This document shows, piece after piece, positions 3,021 through 53,475 of a stretch of DNA of 64,000 nt. The stretch comes from a virus: UHGV virus genome UHGV-0021788. The stretch is one strand, 5' to 3'. Each line of letters begins with the position of its first letter. The stretch's first letter is position 1. Both the position numbers and the translations under genes were made by a program. Below the pieces are notes generated by a model. It made no database searches and was not told where the DNA came from. It was given only the letters and a program-made list of their open reading frames with translations.

Positions 3021-4345
3021 TTACTAGACAGCCCCCTATGTTTGTAAAAAGCATAGCAAATCCTTTTAATTGCTGGAAACTCCTAAAGCTCAATTCACTA
3101 CAACGTAGAGTTAAAACTCAAGCGTGAATGTTACGAAAGTAGAAAAAAGTAATTGAGATTACCCAAGGTTAAATCCTAAAGGTGAATGAATGGACAATCA
3201 GCAGGGAAGATTTTGATTAACACTTAATTTTTTATAAGTTTATGAGTATAATATAAATAAATGGAGGTGATGAAAATGGCAAGAAAGATTTGGAATGAAA
3301 TTACAATAAAAGAATTTATAGAAAATGAAACAAATTATAAATTCATATCAATAGTTAAATTAAACGGAATGAAATCAATGGTATTAGTATGGTGTGGTAA
3401 TCCTAATCATAAGCCTTATAAAGTTCGATTTGATGCATTTAAAGGTACTTCTAAAAAAGAAGGAACGAGATGTGAACAATGTAGAAGAGAAAAAGATACC
3501 ATTTGGACTAAAGATGAAATTATAAAATATGTAGAATCTCAAGATTATAAATTTATAAGATTTGTAAAATTTAATAAATATGCAAGTACAATAGAAATTC
3601 AATGTAATAAAGGACACGAATCATATGAAACATACTTTAGTAATTTCTATAATAATAGAAGATGTTTTCAATGTCATATAATATGGTCTAAAAAAGATAT
3701 TATTAATTTTGTAGAATCTCAAGATTATAAATTTATAAGATTTATAACATATGAAAAAAATAATAGTTTAATAGAGATAAAGTGTCCTAAAGGACATATG
3801 AATCAAGTTAGATTTAGAAAATTTAAAGAAGGAACTAGATGCCCAAAATGTAATAAATCTAAAGGTGAGGAAAGAGTAAAAGATATATTAAAAGAAATGT
3901 GTATAGATTTTAAATCACAATACAAATTCAAAGATTGTAAATGTAAAAAAGAGTTGCCATTTGATTTTTACATACCTTCATTAAATATTGCAATAGAATA
4001 TGATGGAATACAACATTTTGAAATATTACCACATTGGGGTGGCATTGATAAACTTATAGAAACTAAAATACATGATGAAATAAAAACACAATATTGTAAA
4101 AGAAAAAGAATAAAACTTATTAGAATTCCTTATTGGGAATTTAAAAATATAGAAAATATACTTATAAAAGAATTAGTGTTAAATTAGAATAACCTTCAAC
4201 GACTAGAGCATAAGCTCGTACACTCAAGTGAGTGGAAATGGAGGATGCCTAGAAATAGGTAGTGATATAGTCTTGTCTCATGTGAAAGCATGAGTAGTTC
4301 ATAAGAGAACGGATTAGGAGTAACGACCCTAGTTGAAAATAAACG
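3021..4345 (+). mobile_element. Group I intron, class 1, with HEG, inserted in the putative MCP gene.
   Basis: P2 hairpin ctatg...catag at 3036-3056, P at 3067-3078, Q (aatcagcagg) at about 3192-3203, R (cttcaacgacta) at 4194-4205, S (gatatagtct) at 4264-4273. The 3' end ...tgaaaataaacG lies at 4345. The exon phases match (2 nt + 1 nt). Confidence 0.8.
3276..4187 (+). CDS. Intron-encoded homing endonuclease with Zn-ribbon repeats and a Vsr-like/DUF559 (EDxHD-type) domain.
   Basis: Repeated CxxC-containing modules (RCEQC, CFQC, CPKC) are followed by LPFDFYIP..IEYDGIQH..IKLIRIPYWEF. The likely start is the ATG at 3276, after GGAGGTG. Confidence 0.75.
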   Translation: MARKIWNEITIKEFIENETNYKFISIVKLNGMKSMVLVWCGNPNHKPYKVRFDAFKGTSKKEGTRCEQCRREKDTIWTKDEIIKYVESQDYKFIRFVKFNKYASTIEIQCNKGHESYETYFSNFYNNRRCFQCHIIWSKKDIINFVESQDYKFIRFITYEKNNSLIEIKCPKGHMNQVRFRKFKEGTRCPKCNKSKGEERVKDILKEMCIDFKSQYKFKDCKCKKELPFDFYIPSLNIAIEYDGIQHFEILPHWGGIDKLIETKIHDEIKTQYCKRKRIKLIRIPYWEFKNIENILIKELVLN

Positions 4346-8560: not shown

Positions 8561-8771
8561 ATTAATAATAAAACGTTCCCTATGTTTGTAAAAAGCATAG
8601 CAAATCCTTTTAATTGCTGGAAACTCCTAAAGCTCAATTCACTAAAACATAATCTGAAAATGATAAGTGTGAATGTTACGAAAGTAGAAAAAAGTAATTG
8701 AGATTACCCAAGGTTAAATCCTAAAGGTGAATGAATGGACAATCAGCAGGTAAGATTTATATTTATTTTAC

Positions 8772-8800
8772 TTTACTTTTAATAATTAAATTTGTATAAT
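8772..8800 (+). promoter_or_regulatory. Intron-internal sigma-A-like promoter for the HEG: TTTACT-17-TATAAT.
   Basis: tttact, a 17-nt spacer, then tataat, followed by a GGAGGTG RBS and the ATG at 8823. The same cassette precedes the other HEGs. Confidence 0.5.
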
Positions 8801-8822
8801 ATAAGTAAATGGAGGTGGCAAA

Positions 8823-9536
8823 ATGGGAGTTATTAAATATGATTATGATTTCGTTAAAAAATATATCGAAAGTTTTAATTATAAATTATTAAGTGATTAT
8901 ATTGGTATACATGATAAAATAACATTAAAATGTCCTAAAAACCATATTTATAAAACTTCATTTAATAGTTTTTATAGTAACAACTGTAGATGTGGAAAAT
9001 GTAAAAATTTAGAAACAGCAAATAAGAGAAAATATTCAATTGAATACGTTAAAGAATATTTAAATTTATTTGGATATAAATTATTAACAGAAAACTATAT
9101 TAACAATAAACAAAAATTAAAAATAGAATGTGAAAAGGGACACATTTTCTATATGAGTTTTAGTAAATTTAAAAATGCAAAACAAAGATGTCCAGTGTGC
9201 AAAATGTCAAGTGGCGAACAAGAAATTTATAGAATATTACATAAATATTTTGATGACATTGAAATACAATATAAATTTAATGACTGTAAAGATAAAAAAA
9301 GACTTCCATTTGATTTTTATTTACCTCAATATAATTGTTGTATAGAATTTGATGGTATTCAACATTTTGAATATCAGCCACATTTTGGAACTTATTCTAA
9401 ATTTTTAAAACAGCAAAAAAGAGATGAAATAAAAACAGAATATTGTAAAAAAAATAATATAAAATTAATAAGAATAGCTTATTATGAATTTGATAAAATA
9501 GATGAAATTATAAAAAATGAATTAAAAGTAAAATAA
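8823..9536 (+). CDS. Intron-encoded homing endonuclease with a Zn ribbon and a Vsr-like/DUF559 (EDxHD-type) domain.
   Basis: CPKNH, CGKC and CPVC motifs are followed by LPFDFYLPQYNCCIEFDGIQH...IKLIRIAYYEF. Confidence 0.75.
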   Translation: MGVIKYDYDFVKKYIESFNYKLLSDYIGIHDKITLKCPKNHIYKTSFNSFYSNNCRCGKCKNLETANKRKYSIEYVKEYLNLFGYKLLTENYINNKQKLKIECEKGHIFYMSFSKFKNAKQRCPVCKMSSGEQEIYRILHKYFDDIEIQYKFNDCKDKKRLPFDFYLPQYNCCIEFDGIQHFEYQPHFGTYSKFLKQQKRDEIKTEYCKKNNIKLIRIAYYEFDKIDEIIKNELKVK

Positions 9537-9699
9537 TAAATATGAATAAACTTCAACGACTATCCCTAAATGGGAGTACACTCAAGTGGGTGGAAATGGA
9601 GGATACCTAGAAATAGGTAGTGATATAGTCTACTCTTACATGAAAATGTAAGCAGTCGAAAGACGGTATGAGATTAACGACCTCATGCGAATGTTAAGG

Positions 9700-11191: not shown

Positions 11192-14100
11192 GTGAGCGAA
11201 TTTGATATAAGAATTGGTACGCAACTAGATACTAGTAAAGCGTTACAAGAATTAATGGAATTTGTCAAAAAATATGACAATAAAGAAAAGATAAATATAG
11301 ACATAGGTCAATCAAAAGGTGCTAATAATGTAAAGAATACAACTAAAGCTATGAAAGAAATGCAAAAAATAGCTAAGACATTAGGAAATACAAAGATTGA
11401 CGTAGGTAGTAACATAGGTAAAGCAACCAATGAAGCTACCAAATCATTAGAAAATAGTATAGATAAACAAGCCAAATCTATTGCTAAAATAACTAGTGGT
11501 GCACAAAGAGATTTAACTAAAGATGCTCAAAAGGGTATTGAAAATAGTCTTAAAGGTATTACTACAGAAATGAAGAATACCCAAAGAAATGTCGACAAGA
11601 TGATTGGTACTCTTGAACGAGCTAAGAAGGTTGAATTAATAGACCAAAAAGGTTTAGATGAAGGATTAGCTAAATTAAAAGATATGAAAGCTAACCTTAG
11701 AATAGACAATGTTGGTGATGTAGAGAAAAAATTAGGCGAAGTAGCAAATGACTATAAAAGATTAATGTCAGATGCAACTAAAGAAGCATTTAATAATGTT
11801 GAAGTATCAGGATTATTAGAGGATTTAAAAGTTGTTAGAGAAGCTATGTCAGCTAAAAACATGGACTTAACTGGTGTTGATACTTTAATTTCTAAAGCTA
11901 AACAACTTACTTCTTTAAGTGTTGACCAAATGTTAAAACAATATAAAGAGTTAAGACAAGTATTTAGTAAAGAATTAAAGATACCATTAGGTTTAAATGG
12001 TGTAATGAATGCTGAAACTGCAATTAAAAATGTTTTAGATTATAAAAACAAATTAACTGCTAAAATTTCAGTTGAAACAAATTCAGAGCAAGTAGATATT
12101 TTAAGAGATAAAATAGTAAGATGTGATGAAGTTGTTAAACAACTTGAAGGAGACTTAAATTTAGTAGGTAGAAGTACAGCATTAAACTTAATGGAACAAT
12201 CCAATGAAAGAGAATTAGATACATTAAGTGCTAAGTTAAAGAGATGTAAGAATGATTATGCTAACTTAGAAAAAGAAAGACAAAGATTAAATAGAGATAG
12301 TAGATACATTGGAACAGAAGATTTAAGTAATATAGAAAAACAATCATTAGCTATAAAGAAAGCTCTTGATAGTTTAAATATTGGAAATTTAAATACAGAT
12401 AAAATAAATAAAGTTACTGGCGATATAAATAATTTAAGAAAAACAATAGAATTAACTGGTAATTCAGCTAAAAAATTAGATATAGAAGCAACAGTTAAAG
12501 TAGATATGAAAACTGCTCAAGACCAATTAAATGGTATGTATTCTGCTTTAATAAAATCTAATAAATCTACCGTAATGGTTAAAAAATATAAAGATGAATT
12601 AGAAGGATTATTTGATTTATCTAAAACTAATCCAGGTGTAGCATTAGATAAAATAAGTGGTTTTATAGAAAAAGTAAATAAAGAAGCAAGTAATAAAGGT
12701 TTAGGTAAGATAACTGGTGGTTTAGACCAATATAAACAATATTTAAAAGATTATGAAACATTAGTTAAAAAGGCTAGTGGTACTACAGATATTGGTTTTG
12801 CAAAAGCTTACAAATCAGAAGTTACACAAATAGAAAAAGCATTAGACCAATTAGAAAGTGGATTTAATCAAACTCAAAAATCTATGGCTAAAGCTTTAAG
12901 ATTAGAATCAATTAATAAGAACACTCAAGAGTTTACTAATCAAGTTGAAAAATCTATTAAGAAAACTCAAGAATATAAAAAAGAGTTACAAACTCTTAAT
13001 AAAGATGTAAATTTTGATGGTCTTACTTCTAAATTAGGTCAAAAAGTCAAAGAAGAATTTGACGGAATGATTAACAAAACTAATCAATTAGAAAAAAGAC
13101 TTGGTAATATGTTATCATCAGGTAACATAAATACTACTGAATTATCTAAATTAAAATCAGAACTTGAAAGTACTTTTTCTGGTCTTTCTAAACTTAAAGA
13201 TACTAGTATTAAAATTAAAACTGATGAAACTATATCAGGACTTAATAAAATTAAAAAAGATTTAGAATCATTAGGTCAAGATACTAGTCAAATAGAAAGA
13301 GTTATTAATGCATTAAAACAACTTAAAGCTAATTTCAGTGGTGGTACAGCAGGTTATAAAGAATTAGCTAATGGAATAAAAGCTATTGGAAAAGATAATA
13401 ACTTGGAAAAACTAAATAGTTCTTTAGAAAAATCAACTAAAAAATTTAATAACTTAGCTAAGGTTGTTGGAGAATTAAAGGTTAAAAATATAGGAAATAT
13501 AGACCAAGGTGCTTTTCAATCTTTAGACAGTCAAGTTGCACGAATACAATCTCATATAGAAGGTTTAAATAAAAAAGATATATCTTTAATAGATGTTAAA
13601 AAGGTTGAAGCTGAAGTAAATGAATTAAGCAACTGTGTAGAAAAAACGAGTAGTGAATTAACTCAGTATAGTAGATATTTAGAAGAATATAAAAGATTAT
13701 CTAGCCAAGCAGGTAAAACAAATGATGTTAATTTAGCTACAAAATATCAACAAGAAGCAGAAGGTATAAAAGGTGTATTAACTCAATTAGAAAGCGAATT
13801 TACACAAGCTCAAAAATCTATTGCTCAAGGATTAAAAACAGATGCCTTCTCAAATGCTAATGAAAAAATGTCTTCTGAAATTAATAAAACAATTAATACA
13901 GTTGATGGTCTTAAAGAAAAACTTAATTCATTAAATAAAGATGTACATTTTGAAAATATGACATCTGAATTAGGTAAAGGATTAAATGACCAATTTAATA
14001 CTTTAACTAGTAAAGGTGAAGAATTAAAAAATAAATTAAGTAAAATATTAGCATCTGATAATGTGGATATTTCTGCTTTAAGTAAAATTAAAAAAGAAAT

Positions 14101-16323
14101 AAATGAGTTTGCAAGTGAAGTTAATAATTTAAAAAATTCTGCAATGGATAATGTTATTAGAGAATCTTTTGATAACATTAAAATACCTAATTTAAATAAA
14201 CAACTAGAAGCAGTTAAAGATTTAATGTCACTTAAAAATATGGATACTAGTGGTATAGATGCCTTAATAGAAAGAACTAAAAAACTATCAAGCTTAAGCG
14301 TAGATAAAATAGGTCAAGAATTTAAGGAAATACAAAATGCACTTGGTAAAGAAATTAATTTACGTTTAGGTACTAGTGGTATTAAAGATATAGAATCTGC
14401 ATTAAAAGTCATATTACAATATAGAAATGAATTAAAAAATAAAATAGCAGTAGAAACAGACCCATCAAAAGTAAAAGACCTTAATAGTCAATTAGAAAAA
14501 ACTGAAAGCATAATAGAAAAACTTAAAGGTCAAACAAGTAATGGGCTTGGTGCAAGTTTAATTGGTGATGCTGACAAAAACAATTTGAAACAATTAGAAG
14601 ATACTGCTGATAAATTAAAGAAAACATTCTCTAATTTAGAAAACGAAGTAAATAAATTAAACAATGAAGCATTGAATAAAGTTGACATAAGTCAATTAAG
14701 AGAAATGAATGAAGTTGTTAATGATGTAAAGAAAAATTTAGCATCTATTGGAGAAGGAAATGTTAATGTTAATTCAATAAATAAAACAGCACAAGACATA
14801 GAAAAATTAAAAGGACTAATAGAAAACACTAAAAAGACAATTAGTGATATGAAATTGGAAGTTTCATTTAATGTTAAATCAAATGAAGCAGAACAATATT
14901 TAGCAGGTTTTGAATCAGCATTATTAAGATTAGGTAAATCAACCAGTGGAATAAATGCTTTAAAGAGTGAATTTGAAAGTATAAAAAATTCAGCTAATGG
15001 AAATTTAAGTAGTGCCATAAAAATGATTGATGACTTTATTAACAAATTAAAACAAATGGGTAGTAAACAAGGCTTAGGCAACATAAGTGGTACTATGTCT
15101 CAATATAAACAATATACTAAAGAATTACAACAAGCCATGAGTGGGGCATTAAAATCTAGTGGTTCTGATACAGCTAAAGGATTTGAACAACAAGCTGAAC
15201 GAATAAAGAGTGCTATAAAACGTTTGGTTGCAAGTTTCAAAGAATCACAAAGAGAATCGGCTAATGCTTTTAATGGTAGTACATTTAGTGGTTTTTCTTC
15301 TAAATATGAAGCTGAAATAAATAAAGTTGAAAAAAGCATAAACAGATTTAAATCATCAATGCAAAACTTAGATAAAGCTGTAAACTTTAAAGGCTTTCAA
15401 ACAAATTTAGGTAAAGGTTTATCTGAAGAATTTGACCAAATAATGGCGAAAGCTGAACAATTAAGGGATAAATTAAAGAGTGCATTATCTTCTGGTACAT
15501 TTGATATAAGTGAAATAAATAGAATAAAAGATGAATTAAAACAAGTTGAACAAGAAGCAGATTCATTAAAACAAAAATCTATAGTATTAAAATGTGCTGA
15601 AAGTATAACAGAATTAGAAAGACTTAGTGGTAAGATAAAAGATATAGGTGGAGACACATCAAAAATAGAAGAATTAAAAAATAAATTTGTTACACTTGGT
15701 ACAGGTATAAGAGAAGGTACTACAGGAATAGATGATGCAATTTCTAAATTAAAATCCTTATCTTCCGAAGCACAAAGAACTGCTAGTTCTTTTGAATCAA
15801 CTACTGGTAAAATAGGTTCTTTTGGTTCTAAAATACAAGGTTTCTTTAGTTCTATAAAGAATTCATTTAGTACTTTTACTATTGGTAATTTAATGGCTGA
15901 TGGTATAAATCAAGCTGTTTATCAAATAAAAGATACTATAACAGGTTTAGATGAAGCAATGGCTGAATTTAAAAGGGTTGCTCCTGATAACTTTAGTTTA
16001 AATACATCTAATTTACAAAGTGTTGCTAATGAAGCAAGAGAAATAGGTATTAGTGTTGGACAATCAGTAGAAGATGTTATCACTGGAATGAGTACTGCAT
16101 TACAAGCAGGTGCAGGTGATATTAAAACAGCTTCTGAAATAGCTAAGAGTTCTGCTATATTCCAAAATGTTACAGATATGAGTGCAAAGGGTGCTTCAAA
16201 AGCTATTTCTTCAATGGTTAACCAATATTATGATATGGATTCAGCATTAAATCAAGTTGACCACGGTGTAGGTAAATCCGTAAAAGGGTACAACAACCTA
16301 ACCGAAGCGATGGATTTGGTAAT
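11192..16323 (+). CDS. Tail tape measure protein, exon 1.
   Basis: A long coiled-coil-rich ORF. The track's C-terminal DLPFILEII residues are intron read-through. The conserved TMP core (FSTFTIGNLMADGINQAVYQ...) lies near the exon end. Confidence 0.7.
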
Positions 16324-16595
16324 TGATTTGCCGTTTATATTAGAAATAATATAAATTATTAGAGGGCAAAATCGGTGAAGACTAAGTTTTTATAAATATG
16401 TTGATACCGAGATAACTTATTAGATTGCGAAAGGCTAATAAGTATTGTAGAGCATAGGAATTGAATAAATATAATATTCCCAAGAGTGCCCTCCATTCTA
16501 ACGTAAAAAGACGAGGATGAAAATATATGCCATACTGAGCTAGAATTGACTAGCTGATGAAAATGAGGGAAACCTCCAGAGCATAAGATAAAAAG
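16324..16595 (+). mobile_element. Intron-like element, class 2 (ORF-less, about 270 nt), inside the TMP gene.
   Basis: Noncoding in all frames. It shares attgccgt...attagaggg...atcggtgaag.ctaagt...ataccgag...tctaacgt.aaa...tgaaaatatatgc...ataaaaaG with the element at 17397-17750. The flanking exon ends are similar (gaagc.at.g.tggtaat). Confidence 0.55.
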
Positions 16596-16629
16596 CTTAT
16601 GGATAATAACAATAGAAATTACGCTGGTT
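16596..16629 (+). CDS. Possible 34-nt TMP mini-exon between two introns, encoding (I)LWIITIEITLV. This is uncertain.
   Basis: It is the only frame that bridges exon 1 (phase 2+1) to the next exon at 17010. The alternative is a composite intron spanning 16324-17009. Confidence 0.3.
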
Positions 16630-17009
16630 AGAATTAGCCAGGCTATATGGAAACATGTAGTACAAATCTCTTTTGAATTGCTGGAAAGGACTTAGAGCCT
16701 ATTGAACTACAACGTAGATGGAAACATCAAGCGTGAATGTTTAAAAATCAATAGGATTGTTTAATCAGCAGGTAAGATTCTAAGTAATAATTTTATATTA
16801 TTATATGAATAAACTTCAACGACTATCCCTTGGATGTTGAAATACATCAATAGGAGTACGGCTCAAGTGATTGGAGTGGGTGAGAATCCCTTAAATGGAA
16901 GTGGAAGAGGACTTATAAAGGTTCAAGATATAGTCTACTCTCGTAGGAAATCTACGAGCAGTCCTTTTTTGGACGGTATATGTGTAGCGAACATATATGA
17001 ATATTAAGG
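16630..17009 (+). mobile_element. Group I intron, class 1, ORF-less, inside the TMP gene.
   Basis: P at 16676-16687, Q at 16763-16772, R at 16814-16825, S at 16926-16935. Only about 40 nt separate Q from R, where the other copies carry a promoter and HEG. The 3' end reads tgaatattaaGG. Confidence 0.75.
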
Positions 17010-17396
17010 AATAACTTTGCGATTTCATCTGATGGTGTAACAGAAGCATTACAACGTGGTGGTTCTGTATTATCTAACTATGGAGTAGATTTAAAAGATT
17101 CTATTGCAATGATAACTGGGGCAAATGAATCTTTACAAGACCCCGCTCGTATAGGTAATGGTTTAAAATCTATAGCAATTAACCTTTCAGGTATTAAAAC
17201 AAATGCAAAAACAGGTGCTCTTGAATTAAATAAAACAGCAAAAGCATTGCAAGAAACTGCTAAGATAGATATATTTACTGATAGTACTAAAACACAAGTT
17301 AAAGATGTTGTTACTATAATGGATGAAGTAAAAGATAAATGGGCTTCTTTAACTGATGTTGAACAAAAAGGATTGTCAGAAGCTATAGCTGGTAAT
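17010..17396 (+). CDS. Tail tape measure protein, exon 3.
   Basis: The frame opens at 17001. It contains the conserved TMP core (NNFAISSDGVTEALQRGGSVLSNYGVDLKDSIAMITGANESLQDPARIGNGLKSIAINL). The track's ORF at 17109-17402 is the same frame. Confidence 0.65.
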
Positions 17397-17750
17397 ATGT
17401 AAGATTAGTAAATTTATATAAATTTTTATAAAATACAAAAATCTTAAAATTGCCGTCTTTGATAGAAATATTAAAGATAATTAGAGGGATGTATCGGTGA
17501 AGCCTAAGTCGAAAGATATGGTAATACCGAGGGTATCTTAACAGAGAATATCCGTAACGCATAGGGAGTGAGCGATATTGTTAGCAATAACCTCCCCACG
17601 AGCTTCCTCCACGATTATATATAGGATAATCACTTATAGATGTTGCTACTATAAGTTCTAACGTTAAACGAGAGTGAAAATATATGCTGGACTTATGAGA
17701 AATCATAAGAAGTGGATGTGTGAATCGACACACTATTAATAGATAAAAAG
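17397..17750 (+). mobile_element. Intron-like element, class 2 (ORF-less), inside the TMP gene.
   Basis: A paralog of 16324-16595. It is noncoding. The downstream frame opens at 17748, so exon 3 joins exon 4 at a codon boundary. Confidence 0.55.
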
Positions 17751-20700
17751 CTCCACGATAACAAATCGAAAACCCAAGCCGGTGTATTCCAAGCATTGAT
17801 GACAGGTTGGGAAAGAGTTCGTCAATTCCAAAAAGAATACAATGAAGGTTGGATGATAGGTTCAGCCCAAAGAGAAAATGAAATCTTTATGGATTCCATT
17901 GCTGGTAAAATGAATACTTTAAAAGAAAATCTTAAAGGATTATTAACTAGCAATGTTACAACAGATATGTTTAAAGGTCTATTAGATGGTGCTAATAAAG
18001 TAGTAGAAGCAGTAGGAAAAATAAGTTCAAGCTTAGGTAAAATTGGTTCAGCTGGTGCTTTAGTAGGTATTTCATCTTTCGTAAAAACTTTAGCAAATTT
18101 GGATAAAGCTAAAACAATAGGTGGTGGTTTTACAGGATTTGATAAAGTTTTAGAAGTAATACAAGGTACTGCTGTTACTTCTTCTGGTGAAATAAAAACA
18201 CTAGGCGATAGTTTTAAAGAATTAGGTGTTAAGACAACTCTATCTAAAGTAGCATTAGGATTATTTAAAGGTGTATTAATGGGTATTGCATTTACTGCTG
18301 TTGTTAAAGGAATAGATGCTATGGTAAAAGCATGGGATAATTATATTCATGCAACAGAAAATGCAGTAAAGGCTTCTAAGGAAAGACAAGATGGATTTAG
18401 AGATGAAGCACAAACATTAAGTACTAAAAAATCAAGTCTACAAGAAATAGCTAAAGAATATGATAATTTAAATAATAAATCTGATAAAACTGCTGAAGAT
18501 TTAACTAGATTAAATGAATTAAAACAACAAATAGGACAAATAGCTCCTGACCTTGTTAAAGGATATGATTCAGCAGGTAATCCAATATTAAATCTTACTA
18601 CTAGTATGCAAGGTTATATAGCTGAATTAGATAAAGCAATTGCTAAACAACGAGAATTATATAATTATGAAACTAAAAAACAAGCACAAGAATACATGAA
18701 GAAAAATGACACTAAAAATGGTGCTCAAGACCCAGATAGGAATTCTTATGAAACTGAATTAAATCATCTTCAAAATGCAAATGATAGAAAAACTAGAGAA
18801 GAAAAAAGATATACTGGTAGCTTAAAAAATATTATTAAAGATAGAAATAAATATAGAGAAGACCAAGAAAAAAGCATTAATGAAAGATTAGAAAGGATTA
18901 GAAACGCACAAACAGAAGTTAATAATAGAGATGCTACAATTGAAGATAATTATGTTAACGAATTTAATAAGAAAACCAAATTAGCTGAAAAAGAACAAAA
19001 TAAATTTGCTACCTTTATGAAAGGGTTAAATTGGGGTACTTATGGCGAAGCAGAAGCCAATAGAATGTCTAAAGGTTTACAAAAATTATCTGAAAAGACT
19101 GCATTCACAACTCAAGAGATGACAAAAGGATTATCAGGTAGTCTATCAAAAAAAGTTTCAGAAGAAATTTCTAAAGTAAATGCAGAATTCAAAAAAACAA
19201 ATGCTGTAAATGAATGGGGAAAAGGTTTAAGAAAAATAGCTAATGAAACAGGAAAATTTGATTTTTCAAATTGGAGTAATTACTTATCAGAAGTTCAAAC
19301 TCGTTTTGAACAAGGAGTAAGTACTAATGAACAATATACACATTCATTAGGAATTATGGCTGATGCTATGGAAGATTTAACTGGTATAGATTCAGATGTA
19401 TTCTTACCAGCTTTAAAAGGTGGAGCAGATTTAGAAGAAGCCTTTAAATCAGCAACTGAAGGCTTAAATGGTTTTATGAGTGCTTATGGTTCTTCTACTG
19501 CAAAATTACAACAAGGTGATTCATTTGCTAAAAAATTAGAATCTCAATTTAAAGAACTTCAAAATTTTGAAACTGAATTTGAAGGTCAATATGAGATGCA
19601 AGGTAAAGTTAGTGTAGATTGGTTAGTAGAACAAAAAGATAATGAAGATTTACCTAAGCAATTAAGAACTATAATAGATGCAGTAACAAAAGATGGAGAA
19701 GTAACAGAAGTAGAAGAAAAATTAGTATTAGCTTGTGAAACAGAAATAAAAGATAAAGGTAAATTAGAACAAAGCACAATAGATGCAATAAATCAAGTTA
19801 TGGATGGAACATGGGATGTAAATAAAACTATTGAAATAGGTGGTATGGAATTTACATCATCTGAAATAAGAGAATTAATGTCATTGGCAGACCAATTAGG
19901 TATATCTTTAGAAGGTTTAAATATTGGTGATACAGGATTAGAAGGAGAAAATCAAAAAGCTCAAGCATTAAAAGATACAATAGATTCAATTACAGATAGA
20001 GATATAAAAGTAGCAATAGAAGCAGAAGGATTTGAGAATTCAGACCAAGTTAACAACATAATGACAGTTATTGACCAAATAGATGGAAAACAAGCCAAAG
20101 TCGATTTTATAGCAGATGCTTCTCAATACTTTATGGAAAATGATAGTGTTGAATCAGCAATAAAAGCTATGCCTGATGAAATAAAACTTAAATATAATAT
20201 TGGTGTTGAAGGCGATGAAAGACTAGAAGGAATACAAAGTAGACTTGAAAAATTACCAAAAGATATTAGAACTATGGTATATGCTCAAACATATGGTGTT
20301 GAAAATGTTGAAATGCTAGAAAACATAGTAGATGCTTTTGGTGGAAAAACTGCAACAGCAATATTACAGTTAGATGGTATAGATGAAGCTCTTAGAAATG
20401 CTAGTACATTTGAGGAACAATTAAAAATAATTGGAGATTTTATATGTCAACCTGGAGTAGAAATAGAAGGTAAAGATGACATAATTAAAACAATTGATGA
20501 AATATTAAAGAAATTAAAAGAAACAGATGAAAAAGAAAGTAATCCTAAAATAAATGTAGAAGGAGATACTTCTGGTGCAGAGAAAGTAGAAAAAGAAGTA
20601 GACAATGTAGGCAATAAAAAAGGTACTGCTAAAGCAGATGTGGATGGAGATACTTCTGGTGCAGAGAAAGTAGAAAAAGAAGTAGACAATGTAGATGGTA

Positions 20701-23700
20701 AAGAAGGTACTGCTAAGACAAAAATAGAAGGAGATACTTCTGGAGCTGAAAAAGTAAAGAAAGAAGTAGATAATTTAGCTGTCAACAAAAAAGGTACGGT
20801 TACTTTATTAGTAAATGGTCAAGAAAAAATAGCTGAAGCTAAAGTTGTCAAAGGTCAATTAGAAGTAGATGGTAAAGCAGTTACAAGTATTTCTGTTAAT
20901 GGTAAAGACCAATTACCAATAGCTATTAATGAAAAAGGTCAATTAGAAGTAAATGGTCAAGCTATAACTGATGTAACTGTAAAAAATGGAGACCAATTAA
21001 AATTAACAAGAAATGAAAAAGGTCAATTAGAAGTAAATGGTCAAGCTATAACTGATATCAAGGTATATGGGAAAGAAAATGTTAAAGATGCAAAAAAAGA
21101 TGTTGATGATTTAACCAAAGATAATAAAAATGTTAGTATTAACATTGATGTTTCATTAAAAGAAACTGTTGGTGAAATATTATCAAGATTTGGATTAAAT
21201 AAGAAAACAGAAAATGTTGAAATTAATGTAACATGTAATGATAATGCAACTCCAGTATTAGAAAAAATAATGGCAAGACAAGATAAAACTATACAAATAA
21301 AAGTAGACTGCCAAGATAATGCAACATCTAAAATAAACAGTATAGCTAAAATAGGAAATAAAACTGTAACAGTTACAATAAATTGTCAAGATAATGCAAC
21401 ATCTAAAATAAACAGTATAGCTAGTATGGGTAATAAATCTGTAACAGTTACAATAAATTGTCAAGATAATGCAAGTTCTACAATAAATAGAGTTACAAGT
21501 GCACCTTCTTCTAAAGCAATAAATGTTGTAGTAACTTGTACAAATGGTGGAGCAGTTCTTAATACTCTTTCTCAATTAGCTAGTAAAGTAATACCTAGTA
21601 AAAAATTTACTATAAACTGTACAGATAGTGCTAGTAGTGTAGTAAGTAGAGTTAATGGTTTAAAAATATCTGATAAGAAATTTACTATAAATTGTACAGA
21701 TAATGCAACTGCTAAAATAAATAAAGTTATTAGTAAAAAAATACCAAATAAATCATTTACTATAAGTTGTACTGATAATGCTAGTAGTAAATTAAGTAGT
21801 ATTATAAGTAAAATAAGTAATATTCGTAGTAAATCAGTAACAATTACTACTAATCATGTAAGCACAGGCGACCATTCATCTGTTGGTGAACCAACAATTG
21901 TTGATTTACAACCTCAACCATTTAGTAGTACTCAAGCTTCTAATCCTCAAGTGCAATCATTAGGAGAACAAGTTCAAGTATTAAGCGATAGTGTGCAACA
22001 ACAAACTGACAACAATAATGAAGTTAGCGTAATGGCTAAGAAAACATATAAAGCTAATATTGATACAGGTTTAACAGTAAGTGCAGTTAAATATAATATT
22101 GATTTATTAACTAACATGACTAATATGCTTAAAAAATTAGGAACTCAAGTTGATATATTAAAAGCTAAACAAGAAAGAACTTGGGGTACTGCAAGTGCTA
22201 AGTTACTTAGAAATCAAATTTCTTTACTAACTAAACAACAAGATTTAACTAAAATAAATATTAAAAACATGGAAGGTATGGCTAAAAAACTTAAAGGTAG
22301 TTTACAAAAACAAGGATTTAAGTTTAAAGATGATGGAACTATAAGTAATTACAATAGTAAGCTTATAAAAATGCAAAAAAATGTTGAAAGTTTAGAGAAA
22401 GCTGAAAAAGCACTAGAAGACCAAATAAGTAAAACTGAAAAACAAATTTCAAAATCTGAAAAGAAATCTTCAAGTAAGAAGAAATCAACTAGTAAGAAAA
22501 AGAAAAGTACTAGTAAGAAAAAGAGTACGAGCAAAAAGAAGAAAACTTCAAGCAAGAAGAAATCAACTAAGAAAAAGAGCACTAAGAAGAAAACTACTAA
22601 GAAGAAGAGTGCTAGTAGAAGCAATAGAAAAACTACATCAAGTAAAGCTAGTAAAAAGAAGACTACTAAGAAGAAAAAATCAACTAGTAAGAAAAAAAGT
22701 ACATCAACTAAGAAGAAGAGTACTAAAAAGAGTACTAAAAAGAAGACTACTTCTAAGAAGAAATCAACCACTAAGAAGAAAAGTACATCTTCAAGCAAGA
22801 AATCAAAAGCAACTAAAGCATTAGAAAAGAAAAAGAGCGGATTAGAAAAGAAAAAGGATGCAATAAGCAAACAATTAGAAAAAGCACAAAAAGAATTATC
22901 AGAAACTCAAAGCAAATTAAATGAATATTATAATTTACAATTTAGTGAAATTCCTGAAGCTCAACAACAATGGGAAGAATATGCTAATGCTATAGCAGAA
23001 GCTAAGGCAGAAATAATTAGATGTGAATTAGAAGCTAAAACATTCTTTAAGACAGTTAAGATGGAAATGAAAGATGCTATGATTAGCAGAAATGAAACTT
23101 GGGCAGATACATTTATGTTGAAGGCTGATTTAAGTAGTTGGTCTAAAGCAATAGGATATATTAAAGAAGCTAATAAATTATTAGCAAAAAATCAACAACA
23201 TCAACAATCAAAATTAGAAACAGCTCAAGCAAGAGCAGAAGATAACAAGGCATTTTTAAAGAAACAAGGATTTAAATTTGATAAAAATGGATATGTAACA
23301 GGTGCTGAAAAAACTTTACAAAAACTTAAAAAGAAGAAATCATCACAAGAATATGATGCTATAAAAGAAGCATTTGATAGTTATGTTGATGATATGTATG
23401 AAAATATTCCCAAAGCTGAAAATGAATGGTGGAAATTAGAACAGGAAATAAAAGAAAATGAAAGACAAATAAAAGAAACTACTAAATCTATGAATGATTT
23501 AGTTAATTCAGCTAAAGTAGATAAATTAACTAGACAATTTGATGTACTTTCAAATACTTTAGATATATTAGACCTTAAAATGGAACGTGCTTATGGAGCT
23601 AATAAAATAGACTATATGAAACAACAACTTGATATATTATCTAATATGAAAAGTAAGAATCAAGAAATCATTAATCAAAATACTGAGTTATTAAATAATA

Positions 23701-24611
23701 GTAAGAAACAATTAGTTAAATATGGCATTACATTTGATGAAGATGGCAATATAGACAATCTATCAAAAGCATTGAAAAAATTAGATAATCTACAAGATAT
23801 GGAAGATTTAAAAGATTTAGCTGATGAATATAATGATTATAAAGATTCAATAGATGATGCTAGTAAATCAATTGAAGAAGAAACTAATAAACAACTTGAA
23901 TTAAAAGATTCAATGATGGAAATTAGAGAAGAAATGAGAAAACTTAGAGATGATGCATGGGTTAAAACTTATGAAAATGGTCTAAAAGTTATTCAAAATC
24001 GTATTGATACAATAGATTCTTTATTAGATTTAGAAGATGAAAATCAATTTAGTTTACTAAATCAAAAAATTGAAGAATATAAGAATTTAACTAAAGCGAC
24101 TGAGGATAGTTTGGCTTATCAAAAACATAGAAAAATCACTATGCAAAAAACATTGATTGATTATGGTTTCACTATTAATGATGATGGTACAATAGATGGA
24201 ACTGCTAATAAATTAGAACAACTTAAAAATACATTATCTGAAACTGAATTTGGTATAGTAAGTGATACATTAGAAGATTATTTTGATACTGCTTTAGATA
24301 CAATTCCTGAATTAGAAAGAGAATTAATAAAATATCAAAAAGATTTAAAAGATATACAAAATACTAAACTAGAAAAGACTAAAACTATTGAAGAAAAAAT
24401 TACTGAAATATATAACGATGAAATAGATAAAAGAACTAAAAAGATACAAGAAGAAGCAGAAGCACAAACTAAAGCACTTAATAAAGCCAAAGAATCTTAT
24501 CAGAGATGGAGAGACGAAGTTGACTATAAAGATGATTATAATAAACAATTAAAAACTGTTGAAGATTTACAAAAGAAAATAGAAATAGCAAAACGAGATG
24601 ACAGCCTAACT
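17751..24611 (+). CDS. Tail tape measure protein, exon 4. It contains hydrophobic segments, tandem peptide repeats and a lysine/serine/threonine basic tract.
   Basis: Continuous frame from 17748 to 24611. Internal tandem repeats lie at about 20560-20775, 20826-21065 and 21306-21500. The lysine/serine/threonine tract lies at about 22456-22815. Confidence 0.65.
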
Positions 24612-24825
24612 GGGTAATGTTGCCCTAGTCGTAAAGTAATTTGCGACTGAAAATAGATTTAATTGCAGGTAATCCCTAAAGCTCTACACCACAATATATC
24701 TGAAAAGAATATATGAAGGTACGAAAGTAGAAAAAACGTAGAGATTCTCATATGGTTAAATCCTAAGTGAGAGTAACAATGGGTGTTCATGCAAGGAAGA
24801 TTCTAAATTAAATTATTTTAAATAT

Positions 24826-24854
24826 TTTACTTTTAATAAAATAAGCAGTATAAT
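24826..24854 (+). promoter_or_regulatory. Intron-internal promoter for the HEG: TTTACT-17-TATAAT.
   Basis: -35-like tttact, a 17-nt spacer, then tataat, followed by an AAGGAAGGGG RBS and the ATG at 24878. Confidence 0.45.
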
Positions 24855-24877
24855 ATAAATAAGGAAGGGGTGAAATT

Positions 24878-26002
24878 ATGAAAACTAAGTGGACAAAAGA
24901 AGCAATAATAAAATATATAGAGGAACAAGATTATATTTTTATAAATTTTATAAAATTTGATAAATTAAGCTCAAGAATATTAATAAGATGTAATAATAAA
25001 AAGCATAAACCATATGAAGTTACTTTTGCTAATTTCAAAACTGGGAAAAGATGTCCAAAATGCAGTGAAATAAAAAGAAGAAAAAAAAGAACAATATGGA
25101 ATAAAGAAAAAATAATTGATTTTGTAGAAGATAATAACTATGAATTTATTGAATTTGTTAAATTTGATAAAATTGAAAGTATAATTAAGGTATGGTGTAA
25201 AAATTTAAAACATGAACCATATAATGTTAAATTTGCAAATTTTAAAAATGGACAAAGATGTAGAAAATGTTCTGATGAAATAAAAAGTAAAAAATTTTCG
25301 CATAATTATGAATATGTCAAAGAATATATTGAATCATTTGGATATAAAATGTTATCAAACGAATATATAAATTTACATAGCGAAATAAAAATATTATGTG
25401 ACAAACATGGGATATATAAGACAACATTTCAATTATTTAAAATGGCGAAATATAAATGCCCAAAGTGTTCGGATGAACATAGAGGAGAATATCATAAATT
25501 AAATTATGAATATATTAAAGAATATATTGAATCATTTGGATATGAAATATTATCAAATGAATATATAAATATGAAAACAAATATATTGGTAAAGTGTCCA
25601 AATGGTCATAAATCATATTTTACTAATTTTGATAGGTTTAAAAGAGGAGACAGATGCCCTTATTGTAACGAATCTAAAGGTGAGAAAAAAATTAATGAGA
25701 TTTTAAATAAATATAATATGAATTTTAAATCACAATATAAATTTAATAATTGTAAAAGTAAAAGAGAATTACCATTTGATTTTTATATATCTGATTTAAA
25801 TATAGCGATAGAATATGATGGAATACAGCATTATAAAATAATAGAATATTTTAGTGGACTTGATGGTTTCATAACCACTAAAATACATGATGTTATAAAA
25901 ACAAGATATTGTGAAGATAATAATATAAAATTAATTAGAATACCGTATTGGGAATATGATGATATAGAAAGTATATTAATAAAAGAACTTAATTTAAAAT
26001 AA
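24878..26002 (+). CDS. Intron-encoded homing endonuclease with four Zn-ribbon modules and a Vsr-like/DUF559 domain.
   Basis: Repeated W.K..II.F.E...Y.FI.F.K......I...C modules, with CPKC repeated three times. The C-terminal part reads LPFDFYISDLNIAIEYDGIQH..IKLIRIPYWEY. Confidence 0.75.
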   Translation: MKTKWTKEAIIKYIEEQDYIFINFIKFDKLSSRILIRCNNKKHKPYEVTFANFKTGKRCPKCSEIKRRKKRTIWNKEKIIDFVEDNNYEFIEFVKFDKIESIIKVWCKNLKHEPYNVKFANFKNGQRCRKCSDEIKSKKFSHNYEYVKEYIESFGYKMLSNEYINLHSEIKILCDKHGIYKTTFQLFKMAKYKCPKCSDEHRGEYHKLNYEYIKEYIESFGYEILSNEYINMKTNILVKCPNGHKSYFTNFDRFKRGDRCPYCNESKGEKKINEILNKYNMNFKSQYKFNNCKSKRELPFDFYISDLNIAIEYDGIQHYKIIEYFSGLDGFITTKIHDVIKTRYCEDNNIKLIRIPYWEYDDIESILIKELNLK

Positions 26003-26177
26003 TTTAACATGAATAACCTTCAACGACTAGAATGCGAATTCGTAGGGTGTAAGTGATTGACACTCGAAAAGGTCTACCCTTAATATTAAGGTGAAGAAAT
26101 AGTCTAGTCTCATATGAAAGTATGAGCAGTTCATAAGAGAACGGTATATGTTTAGCGAACATATATGAATATAAGCG

Positions 26178-49975: not shown

Positions 49976-50194
49976 GGACTAACATATAGTCCCTATATTA
50001 AGTGATTAGTATAGTAAATCCTTTGAATTGCTGGTAAATCCTAAAGCCTTATAAACTACAACATGATTAGAAATAATGAGTGTGAATGTTACGAAAGTAG
50101 AAAAAATTATAAGGATAACATATGGTTAAATCCTAAGTGTTATATACAATGGAAGCTCAGCAGGTAAGATTCTAAATTAAATTATTTTAAATAC

Positions 50195-50223
50195 TTGACT
50201 TTTAATAAGATAAATTGTATAAT
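50195..50223 (+). promoter_or_regulatory. Intron-internal promoter for the HEG: TTGACT-17-TATAAT.
   Basis: Consensus -35 and -10 elements with a 17-nt spacer, followed by a GTGAGGTGA RBS. Confidence 0.55.
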
Positions 50224-50245
50224 ATAAGTAAAGTGAGGTGATAAA

Positions 50246-51160
50246 ATGGGAAGAAAGAAAACACATGAGGAATTTATGAAAGAGTTTTATGAAAAAAATC
50301 CTAATGCTAAAAATATAGAAATATTAGGAAAATATGAAGGTAGAAAAGTAAAAATTTTATGTATGTGTAAAATAGATAACTATAAATGGCATACAACTCC
50401 TAATGGATTATTGGGAAGTAAAAATATTAAACCAAATGGATGTCCGAAATGTGCTGGAAAAATAAAAAAAACACATAAACAATTTATAGAAGAAATGAAT
50501 GAAATAAATCCAAATATTAAAATATTGGGGCGTTACATAGATGCTAAAACTAAGATAGAATGTGAATGTAAAATAGATGGATATAAATGGGAAGTTGAAC
50601 CAACTAATTTGCTACAGAAAAGAGGATGTCCAAAATGTGCTAATAAAATACCTAGAGAACATGATGATTTTGTTAAAGAATTAAATAACATCAATCCTAA
50701 TATAAAAATAATAGGTAAATTTATATCTACTAGAACTAAAATAGAATGTGAATGTAAAATAGATGGATATAAATGGGAAGCTGAGCCAAGACATCTTTTA
50801 GGAAATCATGGATGTCCAAAATGTAATGATTCTATTGGAGAAAAAATAACTTATAATATATTAAATAAATTAAATATAAAAAATATAAGACAATACAAAT
50901 TTAAAGATTGTAAATTTTATAAATGTCTTCCTTTTGATTTTTATTTGCCACAATATAATTGTTGTATTGAAATTGATGGTAAGCAACATGAGAATATAGT
51001 CAAATGGTTTGGTGGGTTAGATGGTTTTATAGATAGAAAAATTAGAGATACGGTTAAAGATATATATTGTAAGAATAATGGAATAAAATTAATTAGAATT
51101 ACATATAAAGATATAAATGAAATAGAAAAAATAATTTGTCAAGAACTTAATTTAAATTAA
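50246..51160 (+). CDS. Intron-encoded homing endonuclease with three Zn-ribbon modules and a Vsr-like/DUF559 domain.
   Basis: CPKC repeated three times. The C-terminal part reads LPFDFYLPQYNCCIEIDGKQH..IKLIRITYKDI. Confidence 0.75.
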   Translation: MGRKKTHEEFMKEFYEKNPNAKNIEILGKYEGRKVKILCMCKIDNYKWHTTPNGLLGSKNIKPNGCPKCAGKIKKTHKQFIEEMNEINPNIKILGRYIDAKTKIECECKIDGYKWEVEPTNLLQKRGCPKCANKIPREHDDFVKELNNINPNIKIIGKFISTRTKIECECKIDGYKWEAEPRHLLGNHGCPKCNDSIGEKITYNILNKLNIKNIRQYKFKDCKFYKCLPFDFYLPQYNCCIEIDGKQHENIVKWFGGLDGFIDRKIRDTVKDIYCKNNGIKLIRITYKDINEIEKIICQELNLN

Positions 51161-51319
51161 TTTAATATGAATAAACTTCAACGACTAAGTATCCTAGTAG
51201 TCTAGGTAGTGGAGGATACCCTTATTGGGTAATGATATAGTCTGCTCTCATGGGAAACCATGAGCAGTTTTTATGTAAAAAAACGGATAGAATAGTAACG
51301 ATATTCTATTGAACATAAG

Positions 51320-52155: not shown

Positions 52156-52332
52156 TGGTAAAAAAATATTGCCACTTTACATAGTAATATGTAATGACAA
52201 ACTCATTGAATTGCTGGGACGACCTTAGAGCCTTAATGCCACAATATAAGAGAAATCATTATATGAAGGTTTAAAAAGTTTAAGGATTGGTTAATCAGCA
52301 GGTAAGATTCTAAATTAAATTATTTTAAATAC

Positions 52333-52361
52333 TTGACTTTTAATAAGATAAATTGTATAAT
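52333..52361 (+). promoter_or_regulatory. Intron-internal promoter for the HEG: TTGACT-17-TATAAT.
   Basis: Identical to the cassette at 50195-50223. Confidence 0.55.
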
Positions 52362-52384
52362 ATAAGTAGAGTGAGGTGATAAAT

Positions 52385-53299: not shown

Positions 53300-53475
53300 T
53301 TTAACATGAATAAACTTCAACGACTATCCTGTAATGGAGTAGGGTTCAAGCGAACTCGAAGTAGTGAGCATCTTAATAAAGATGAAGATATAGTCTAGTC
53401 TCATGGGAAACCATGAGCAGTTTTTGTGCGTAAAAACAAAACGGGTTAGGTGTAGCGAACCTAATTGAATATAAC

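What the first reader, a model, noticed from the sequence alone, without database searches (positions are those of the whole stretch)
16324..17009. Two adjacent introns of different classes that are 34 nt apart
The class 2 element (16324-16595) and the ORF-less class 1 intron (16630-17009) are separated by 34 nt. Those 34 nt are the only frame that links TMP exon 1 to exon 3, and they add ILWIITIEITLV. The alternatives are a mini-exon between two independently splicing introns, or a composite (twintron-like) element excised in one or two steps.
Basis: inference. Interest (0 to 1): 0.6.

Follow-up and report, generated by a model that had tools for sequence, protein, structure and literature searches.

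The report
13-base exon between two introns
A phage tail tape-measure gene is interrupted by two unrelated self-splicing group I introns that lie only 13 bases apart (not 34), and those 13 bases encode the conserved motif NYAG; this is a neat but ordinary case of mobile introns crowding into a conserved gene segment.

Summary
The upstream "class 2" intron is 16321-16615, not 16324-16595. The downstream "class 1" intron is 16629-17009. The exon between them is 13 nt (16616-16628, AAATTACGCTGGT), not 34 nt.

Splicing gives ...AMDLV-NYAG-NNFAISS.... This motif is contiguous and conserved in intron-less TMP homologues.

Related gut jumbo-phage contigs carry neither intron, class 2 only, class 1 only, or both. 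The two are therefore independent mobile introns, not a twintron. The double arrangement with an identical mini-exon recurs in 8 other fetched loci, some of which probably sample the same phage.

Group I introns in phage TMP genes, small exons between phage introns and exon skipping are all published. This is a new member of a known kind. Splicing itself is inferred, not shown.

The parts
11192..16320 (+). TMP exon 1, ending ...GCG ATG GAT TTG GT (AMDL + first two bases of Val)
   Evidence: The ORF list and the spliced translation. The homologue alignment reaches ...EAMDLV.
16317..16333 (+). P1 of the class 2 intron: UGGU|AA (16317-16322) pairs with UUGCCG (16328-16333). The U16320.G16330 wobble marks the 5' splice site.
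   Evidence: The centroid fold. The same UGGU|AA / UUGCCG pairing occurs in the second class 2 copy (17390-17395 / 17451-17456). In L014 the pairing changes on both sides (GCU / GGC).
16321..16615 (+). Class 2 group I intron, 295 nt, ORF-less, ending in G16615. Helices: P2 16333-42/16347-56; P3 16362-68/16487-93; P4 16372-77/16405-10; P6 16416-22/16436-42; P7 16452-56/16526-30; P7.1 16457-61/16476-80; P8 16494-504/16511-19; P9 16538-43/16550-55; P9a 16565-68/16573-76; P9b 16582-87/16596-601.
   Evidence: RF00028 at 36 bits, E 2e-7. In the 8-sequence alignment A2, 94.3% of cells pair against 33-45% for slid controls, and 43 of 69 pairs show compensatory change. Coordinates are mapped. Relatives lack the intron.
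16582..16601 (+). P9b hairpin of the class 2 intron.
   Evidence: Helix 10 has 5 of 7 pairs with changes on both sides.
16616..16628 (+). Mini-exon, 13 nt, AAATTACGCTGGT: the third base of Val plus Asn-Tyr-Ala-Gly
Evidence: DLxNYAGNNFAIS is contiguous in intron-less homologues. The identical 13-mer lies between the same two introns in L006, L008, L009, L010, L021-L023 and L025.
16624..16641 (+). P1 of the class 1 intron: CUGGU|UA (16624-16630) pairs with UAGCCAG (16635-16641). The U16628.G16637 wobble marks the 5' splice site.
   Evidence: The MFE and centroid folds and the Rfam alignment. L003 has the same junction, GCT GGT|TAGAATTAGCCAGG.
16629..17009 (+). Class 1 group I intron, 381 nt, ORF-less, with classical P/Q/R/S elements (AATTGCTGGAAAGG 16677, AATCAGCAGG 16763, TTCAACGACTATCC 16815, AAGATATAGTCT 16925) and terminal G17009
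   Evidence: RF00028 at 68.9 bits, above gathering. Motif searches. blastn similarity to introns of Twort-like Staphylococcus phages and Bacillus phages PBS1/AR9.
17010..17393 (+). TMP exon 3 (NNFAISSDGV ... GLSEAIAG)
17394..17768 (+). Second class 2 group I intron in the same gene, 375 nt. It has the same UGGU|AA 5' splice site, a hairpin inserted in the P1 loop, and terminal G17768.
   Evidence: SEAIAG|KTQAGVFQALM is contiguous in P0001, P0008, P0009 and P0010.
17769..24617 (+). TMP exon 4. The spliced protein is about 4,124 aa.

Best explanation
Two independent self-splicing group I introns of different structural types have inserted 13 nt apart in the conserved TP901-type core of a giant phage tape-measure gene.

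The upstream intron (16321-16615) recognises its 5' splice site through a short P1 helix (UGGU|AA with UUGCCG, U16320.G16330). It ends at G16615. The first two exon bases (AA, 16616-16617) can take over the UU of the guide sequence as P10.

The downstream intron (16629-17009) uses the last five bases of the mini-exon (CUGGU, 16624-16628) as the exon strand of its own P1 (U16628.G16637). It ends at G17009.

The two recognition segments do not overlap, so each intron can splice on its own in either order. Co-transcriptional 5'-to-3' order is the likelier one, which is an inference. The product reads ...GAT TTG GTA AAT TAC GCT GGT AAT AAC TTT..., that is ...DLVNYAGNNF....

Shown here: the borders (by homology and by group I rules), the RNA structures (by covariation and by covariance-model match), and the independent occurrence of the two introns. 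Inferred: that both actually self-splice.
For: (1) Alignment of 20 homologues shows DLxNYAGNNFAIS uninterrupted.

(2) TIGR01760 scores the 13-nt model at 68.4 bits as a single stretch. The model without a mini-exon scores 56.4.

(3) Natural variants:
- L003 and L024 read GAT TTG GTC/GTG AAT TAT GCT GGT|TAGAATTAGCC (class 1 only).
- L001, L002 and L004 read ...GGT|AATTGATTTGCCG...ACAATTAG|AAATTTTGCGGGA AAT AAT (class 2 only).
- L005 and L007 have neither intron.
- The window and 8 other loci have both, with the same 13-mer.

(4) Both elements match RF00028.

(6) The tail GGATAAYAAC...G| is conserved in class 2 copies sitting in other genes.

(7) Codon choice follows intron presence. Val is GTA only when class 2 is present. 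In the two alleles without either intron (L005, L007) Gly is GGC, while class 1 alleles always have GGT, which supplies the U at -1.

(8) In relatives the class 2 intron carries a 235-aa endonuclease-family ORF (phrog_559, E 4e-57), or only its promoter remnant. This is the usual decay series of a mobile intron.
Against: There are no RNA data, so splicing and the exact junctions are inferred. The class 2 element scores below the Rfam gathering threshold. P1 of class 2 has only four exon base pairs and P10 of both introns is 2-3 bp, so recognition looks weak on paper. At the protein level, class 1 borders one base to the left (16627|17009) would give GCT GGG AAT and the same peptide. Only the U.G rule decides for 16628|17010.
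Confidence: 0.9

Rival explanations
1. One reading: class 2 intron 16324-16595, a 34-nt mini-exon 16596-16629 encoding ILWIITIEITLV, and class 1 intron 16630-17009.
For: It is in frame. G16595 could serve as a terminal G and T16629 as a U at -1.
Against: The inserted peptide has no counterpart in any homologue and removes the conserved NYAG. The TIGR01760 score drops to 54.1 bits and the alignment breaks. Bases 16596-16601 pair with 16582-16587 in a covarying hairpin. Bases 16596-16615 are conserved in class 2 introns of unrelated genes. The wobble pair in each P1 lies at 16320 and 16628, not at 16323 and 16629.
Confidence: 0.02
2. A composite or twintron-like unit: the whole stretch from about 16321 to about 17008 is removed as one piece or in nested steps, joining DLV directly to NNFAISS.
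For: Joining 16320 to 17009 is in frame.
Against: It deletes NYAG, which is conserved across homologues, and scores 12 bits lower. Each intron exists alone at its own site in relatives. Neither intron interrupts the other's structure: class 2 is complete up to G16615 and class 1 is complete from its P1 onward.
Confidence: 0.03
3. Besides normal splicing, a fraction of transcripts skip the mini-exon. The 3' end of exon 1 (UUGGU) pairs with the class 1 guide sequence (AGCCAG) almost as well as the mini-exon's CUGGU does. Exon 1 would then be ligated to 17010, producing a frameshift and a truncated protein of about 1,720 aa. This is compatible with the main explanation, not exclusive of it.
For: The sequence allows UUGGU to form 5 pairs with the guide, two of them G.U (read directly). 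Exon skipping by phage group I introns is documented for Twort orf142 (cited in PMC3073962) and for phage SIOphi (PMC11878797).
Against: There are no RNA data. The skipped product is out of frame (GTA ATA ACT TTG CGA TTT CAT CTG ATG GTG TAA), so it would probably be waste. The two introns are dissimilar, whereas the three Twort orf142 introns that skip an exon are described as similar to one another (PMC3073962).
Confidence: 0.15
4. The TMP gene is a decaying pseudogene and the insertions are not removed.
For: None specific. ORF-less introns are immobile.
Against: All four exons stay open and conserved for about 4,124 codons. The same arrangement occurs in several 170-204 kb phage genomes. The helices of both introns are intact.
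Confidence: 0.02

Closest known systems
Group I introns in tape-measure genes of Bacillus cereus-group prophages (TMP-IVS1, IVS2, IVS3; Tourasse and Kolsto 2008, PMC2504315)
   Same: Several group I introns occupy one TMP gene. Related introns adapt their P1 to different sites, different introns occupy the same site, many copies lack an endonuclease ORF, and conserved gene segments are targeted.
   Different: Different phages (low-GC gut jumbo phages). The section read names three insertion positions and gives no distances between them, whereas here two sites are 13 nt apart. One of the introns here belongs to a family also found in Clostridium/Clostridioides phages and a crAss-like phage.
[quoted passage not shown]
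   Same: A small internal exon flanked by two self-splicing phage group I introns, with the possibility of exon skipping.
   Different: Those were shown by cDNA sequencing and lie in nucleotide-metabolism and terminase genes. Here the evidence is comparative only and the gene is structural. The size of their small exon was not given in the passages I read.
Staphylococcus phage Twort orf142, with three group I introns and exon skipping (Landthaler and Shub 1999, as cited in PMC3073962 and PMC11878797)
   Same: A structural phage gene with several group I introns. The class 1 intron here is similar by blastn to introns of Twort-like phages.
   Different: The Twort introns resemble each other. 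Here the neighbours belong to two different intron families.
Mitochondrial mini-exons between group I/II introns, down to 3 nt or 1 nt (PMC8971849, PMC12308204)
   Same: Very short exons that gene finders miss and that are recognisable only through conservation of the spliced product.
   Different: Those are organellar genomes, often with protein-assisted splicing. This is a phage gene.

Membership tests
Group I intron (class 1 element, 16629-17009) | Conserved catalytic core (P3-P9, P/Q/R/S elements) matching the family covariance model | tested here: met
   RF00028 at 68.9 bits against a gathering score of 50, full model 1-253. R and S elements were found by pattern search.
Group I intron (class 1 element) | 5' splice site after a U that forms a U.G wobble in P1; intron ends in G | tested here: met
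   U16628.G16637 in the P1 hairpin. G17009 precedes AAT AAC.
Group I intron (class 2 element, 16321-16615) | Match to the family covariance model at the curated threshold | tested here: inconclusive
   RF00028 at 36 bits, below the gathering score of 50, but E 1.8e-7 over the full model in a 731-nt search.
Group I intron (class 2 element) | Group I helix order with the P3/P7 pseudoknot, supported by covariation | tested here: met
   69 pairs in 10 helices, 94.3% paired, 43 pairs with compensatory change, and 0 of 500 shuffles reach this. P3 has 4 covarying pairs and P7 has one (GCATA/TATGC to GCGTA/TACGC).
Group I intron (class 2 element) | U.G wobble at the 5' splice site, terminal G, and exact restoration of the host reading frame | tested here: met
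   U16320.G16330 and G16615. Intron-less alleles read GTC/GTG AAT TAT GC..
Group I intron (both elements) | Guanosine-dependent self-splicing | not testable with these tools
   Needs in vitro transcription and splicing, or cDNA.
Twintron (intron within an intron) | One intron interrupts the other, so the outer intron is only completed after the inner one is removed | tested here: not met
   Both structures are complete and separate. 13 coding nt lie between them. Each intron occurs alone in relatives.
Mobile intron with a homing endonuclease gene | Endonuclease ORF in a peripheral loop | tested here: not met
   Both window copies are ORF-less. Relatives L001, L006 and L010 carry a 235-aa ORF in P5 of the class 2 intron (phrog_559, E 4e-57). 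L008 and L009 keep only the promoter remnant.
TP901-type phage tape-measure protein (host gene) | Match to TIGR01760 above its cut-off across the spliced junctions | tested here: met
   68.4 bits against a cut-off of 28.8, one stretch covering residues 26-370 of the 375-aa spliced segment.

The most novel reading that the evidence does not exclude
The 13-nt exon would be among the shortest internal exons of any phage or bacterial protein gene flanked by two self-splicing introns of different families. Because the ends of exon 1 (UUGGU) and of the mini-exon (CUGGU) both fit the downstream intron's guide sequence, the phage might set the ratio of full-length to truncated (about 1,720 aa) tape-measure product through competition between normal splicing and exon skipping.
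Probability: 0.1. Interest if true: 0.6.

Novelty: new member of a known kind. Interest (0 to 1): 0.33.

Why it matters
It corrects the gene model. The true spliced TMP carries NYAG at this point, not a 12-residue hydrophobic insert.

It is a clear natural example of how tightly group I introns can pack. One 13-nt exon supplies P10 for one ribozyme and P1 for the next.

About 40 nt of the segment encoding EAMDLVNYAGNN holds three separate insertion sites across related phages. All presence/absence states were seen for the two sites studied here, and the third-site intron was seen alone or paired with the class 1 intron. That makes it usable material for studying intron homing, mutual exclusion of homing sites and co-conversion.

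On the practical side, ordinary gene callers and a whole-window Rfam scan both miss these introns. Many database 'TMP' entries in this clade are therefore truncated exon fragments.

Tried and rejected
- Whole-window Rfam scans, at gathering threshold and at E<=10 over 3 kb, found no intron. This was a filter artefact, because a 731-nt scan found both.
- I first placed the class 2 guide sequence one base too far left (16327-16332). The fold corrected it to 16328-16333.
- RNAalifold proposed a long-range pairing of the guide-sequence UUG with UAA/CAA near the 3' end (alignment columns 33-35 with 416-418). I left it out of the model because it has little covariation and competes with P1.
- I could not assign the introns to subgroups with these tools. 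Class 1 looks IA2-like, with a long P7.1/P7.2 region. Class 2 has one hairpin between P7 and P3', and its second copy has a CCUAAG...UAUGG receptor-like motif in P5. This rests on my own knowledge and is left open.
- I tried to fix the borders of the 'site 0' intron in relatives. Every in-frame option puts G or A, not U, at -1. This remains unexplained.
- Landthaler and Shub 1999 (PMC22036) is not held in the library, so exon sizes in Twort orf142 could not be compared.
- The phage collection held no close relative of the region: no record covered even 80% of the 2.8-kb query, and the matches were to the introns only.

Full report
**What is in the sequence**

The window is low-GC (about 27%) phage-like DNA with essentially all large ORFs on the + strand. 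A giant tape-measure (TMP) reading frame is broken into three pieces: 11192-16354, 17010-17402 and 17796-24617.

Two non-coding elements lie between the first two pieces. The downstream one carries the classical group I P, Q, R and S elements: AATTGCTGGAAAGG, AATCAGCAGG, TTCAACGACTATCC and AAGATATAGTCT. The upstream one has a second copy between the second and third pieces (ATCGGTGAAGMCTAAGT at 16371 and 17493).

Whole-window Rfam scans reported nothing. A scan of only 16300-17030 gave RF00028 Intron_gpI for both elements. Class 1 matched at 16619-16958 with 68.9 bits (gathering score 50, E 2e-17). Class 2 matched at 16311-16553 with 36 bits (E 2e-7). Each element folds better than shuffled sequence, with z -4.2 and -3.3.

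**Where the borders are**

Three splice models are all in frame:
- no mini-exon, giving DLV-NNF;
- a 13-nt mini-exon at 16616-16628, giving DLV-NYAG-NNF.

Homology decides between the models. TIGR01760 (tape_meas_TP901) scores the 13-nt model at 68.4 bits in one stretch. The model without a mini-exon scores 56.4. In an alignment of 20 homologues found in the 5.8-billion-protein search, the string D-L-x-N-Y-A-G-N-N-F-A-I-S is uninterrupted and conserved. Examples are P0001 AMDLANYAGNNFAISSEGV, P0012 AMDLMNYAGNNFAIGTDGI and the Clostridioides difficile protein P0034 FSDLANYAGNNFAVTTGDV.

The same alignment confirms the third intron. SEAIAG|KTQAGVFQALM is contiguous in P0001, P0008, P0009 and P0010.

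**Natural presence/absence variants**

Contigs encoding relatives show every state at the DNA level.
- L003 (TMP 87.6% identical) reads GAT TTG GTC AAT TAT GCT GGT|TAGAATTAGCCAGG.... It has no class 2 intron, and the class 1 intron starts exactly where I place it. L024 is the same.
- L001, L002 and L004 have the class 2 intron...GGT|AATTGATTTGCCG ... ACAATTAG|AAATTTTGCGGGA AAT AAT TTC. The exon continues with no class 1 intron.
- L005 and L007, from 198 kb IMG/VR phage genomes with the TMP segment 94-100% identical, have neither intron: GAC TTG GTC AAT TAT GCA GGC AAT AAT and GAT TTA GTG AAT TAT GCT GGC AAT AAT.
- The window has both introns, and so do L006/L015, L008/L017, L009/L018, L010/L016, L021, L022, L023 and L025. 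Every one has the identical 13-mer AAATTACGCTGGT between them. Some of these loci probably sample the same phage.

Codon choice follows intron presence. Val is GTA only where class 2 is present. The two alleles without either intron have Gly GGC, while class 1 alleles always have GGT, which provides the U at -1.

The two elements are therefore gained and lost independently. They are not a twintron.

**Structure of the class 2 intron and why 16595 is not its end**

I aligned eight class 2 introns (alignment A2). Two are from the window, three from related TMP genes, one from the TMP of Clostridioides phage pCD1602_4, one from the split terminase gene of Clostridium phage vB_CpeS-1181, and one lies upstream of a helicase gene in crAss-like phage cr6_1.

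RNAalifold recovers P2, P3, P4/P5, P6, a hairpin between P7 and P3', P8 and three P9 hairpins. With the P7 pseudoknot added, 94.3% of cells pair against 33-45% when partners are slid. 43 of 69 pairs show compensatory change, and no shuffle out of 500 reaches this.

In window coordinates, the last hairpin is 16582-16587 (CATAAG) paired with 16596-16601 (CTTATG). Five of its seven pairs covary. The tail GGATAAYAAC..G that follows is conserved in all eight introns, whatever the host gene, and ends at G16615.

**Splice-site recognition**

For class 2, UGGU|AA (16317-16322) pairs with UUGCCG (16328-16333), with U16320.G16330 at the cleavage site. The second copy uses the same UGGU|AA, with a hairpin inserted in the P1 loop. 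The pCD1602_4 copy changes both strands, GCU with GGC. Most 3' exons examined begin with AA (GG or GA in two), which can replace the intron's AA on the guide's UU as P10.

For class 1, CUGGU|UA (16624-16630) pairs with UAGCCAG (16635-16641), with U16628.G16637 at the cleavage site. G17009 precedes AAT AAC.

At the protein level alone, borders one base to the left (16627|17009) would give the same peptide. The U.G rule favours 16628|17010.

**How it most likely works**

The mini-exon has two jobs that do not overlap. Its first two bases serve P10 of the upstream ribozyme, and its last five bases form P1 of the downstream ribozyme. Six bases lie in between. Each intron can therefore splice independently.

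The upstream intron is complete about 380 nt before the downstream one is fully transcribed. I infer that it usually goes first.

The product is GAT TTG GTA AAT TAC GCT GGT AAT AAC TTT. All of this is inferred from sequence, and no RNA evidence was available.

One further possibility follows from the sequence. The end of exon 1 (UUGGU) can also pair with the class 1 guide, so exon skipping is conceivable. It would give a frameshifted, truncated product.

**Mobility**

In L001, L006 and L010 the class 2 intron carries a 235-aa ORF with its own promoter in the P5 loop. In L008 and L009 only the promoter remnant is left, and in the window nothing remains. That ORF, the ORF of the class 2 intron in the Clostridium phage terminase, and the one class 1 intron ORF of the window that I tested (50246-51160) all hit the same endonuclease families: phrog_559, phrog_9084 and phrog_7140. 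This is the familiar invasion and decay series of homing introns.

**Comparison with what is known**

Group I introns at three sites in prophage TMP genes were described in 2008 (PMC2504315). Several introns in one phage gene, with exon skipping, are known from Twort (cited in PMC3073962). A small exon between two introns (phiNIT1 rNDPL) and dominant exon skipping (SIOphi) were shown by cDNA sequencing in 2025 (PMC11878797). Mini-exons of 1-3 nt are known in mitochondria (PMC8971849 and PMC12308204).

The present case is thus a new member of a known kind. Its distinguishing points are the very short spacer, the two different intron families, and the full set of presence/absence states at these two sites in related genomes.

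**Verdict**

Interest is modest.

Noticed in passing
window 17394-17768: A third intron in the same TMP gene. It is a second class 2 copy with the same UGGU|AA 5' splice site, a hairpin inserted in the P1 loop, and a canonical-looking CCUAAG...UAUGG receptor motif capped by GAAA in P5. Splicing gives SEAIAG|KTQAGVFQALM.
   Followed up: yes
window about 1-720, 3100-4300, 8700-9650, 24750-26130, 50130-51270, 52270-53420: Six more class 1-type group I introns (R element at 522, 4195, 9552, 26019, 51177 and 53316). At least five carry 237-374-aa ORFs preceded by a repeated TTGACT...TATAAT promoter and Shine-Dalgarno block (repeat families D2, D10, D11); the first copy lies at the window's start and was not checked. 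That makes nine introns in 64 kb.
   Followed up: partly
window 16300-17030 versus the whole window: Rfam scans of the whole window (gathering threshold) and of 3 kb (E<=10) reported no group I intron. A 731-nt scan found both, one of them well above gathering. The speed filters hide these AT-rich introns, so 'no Rfam hit' on large windows is unreliable here.
   Followed up: yes
L005 2662-4003; L019 and L020 (27 nt upstream of the class 1 site): Relatives have a further class 1-type intron with an ORF at a 'site 0', just before GCA ATG GAT (AMD). In L019 and L020 it is followed by a 27-nt mini-exon GCAATGGATTTAGTGAATTATGCTGGT and then the class 1 intron. Three insertion sites therefore fall within about 40 nt. 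Every in-frame border for the site-0 intron puts G or A, not U, at -1. This is unexplained.
   Followed up: partly
L014 (Clostridioides phage pCD1602_4, CP069348.1), L012 (Clostridium phage vB_CpeS-1181, MW478292.1), L013 (crAss-like phage cr6_1, NC_055894.1): Class 2-family introns sit unannotated in public phage records. There are two in the pCD1602_4 TMP gene. One with an ORF splits the vB_CpeS-1181 terminase large subunit into two annotated CDS. One lies next to an 'endonuclease' upstream of a helicase gene in cr6_1.
   Followed up: partly
proteins P0002, P0003, P0012-P0014, P0016, P0018, P0019, P0033-P0035: Many database TMP entries of this clade stop with a few junk residues right after IAG, GNGLK or EKTG. 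They are exon fragments cut off by unrecognised introns at these and other sites.
   Followed up: partly
window 11192-24617 (spliced): The spliced TMP is about 4,124 aa, very long for a tape-measure protein. It contains internal repeats and a Lys/Ser/Thr-rich low-complexity block (about 22440-22800) and 75-84-nt tandem repeats (20500-21800).
   Followed up: no
L021 (OKWD01000058.1), upstream of the class 2 intron: The contig shows TTAGGGATTAGGGATT-like repeats abutting a truncated intron ORF. This is possibly an assembly chimera.
   Followed up: no
window 16834-17007: A 57-aa ATG ORF lies inside the P7.1/P7.2-P9 part of the class 1 intron. It is probably a chance ORF, since the endonuclease ORFs of the other copies sit in the P6 loop after CAGCAGGTAAGATTCTAA.
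   Followed up: no
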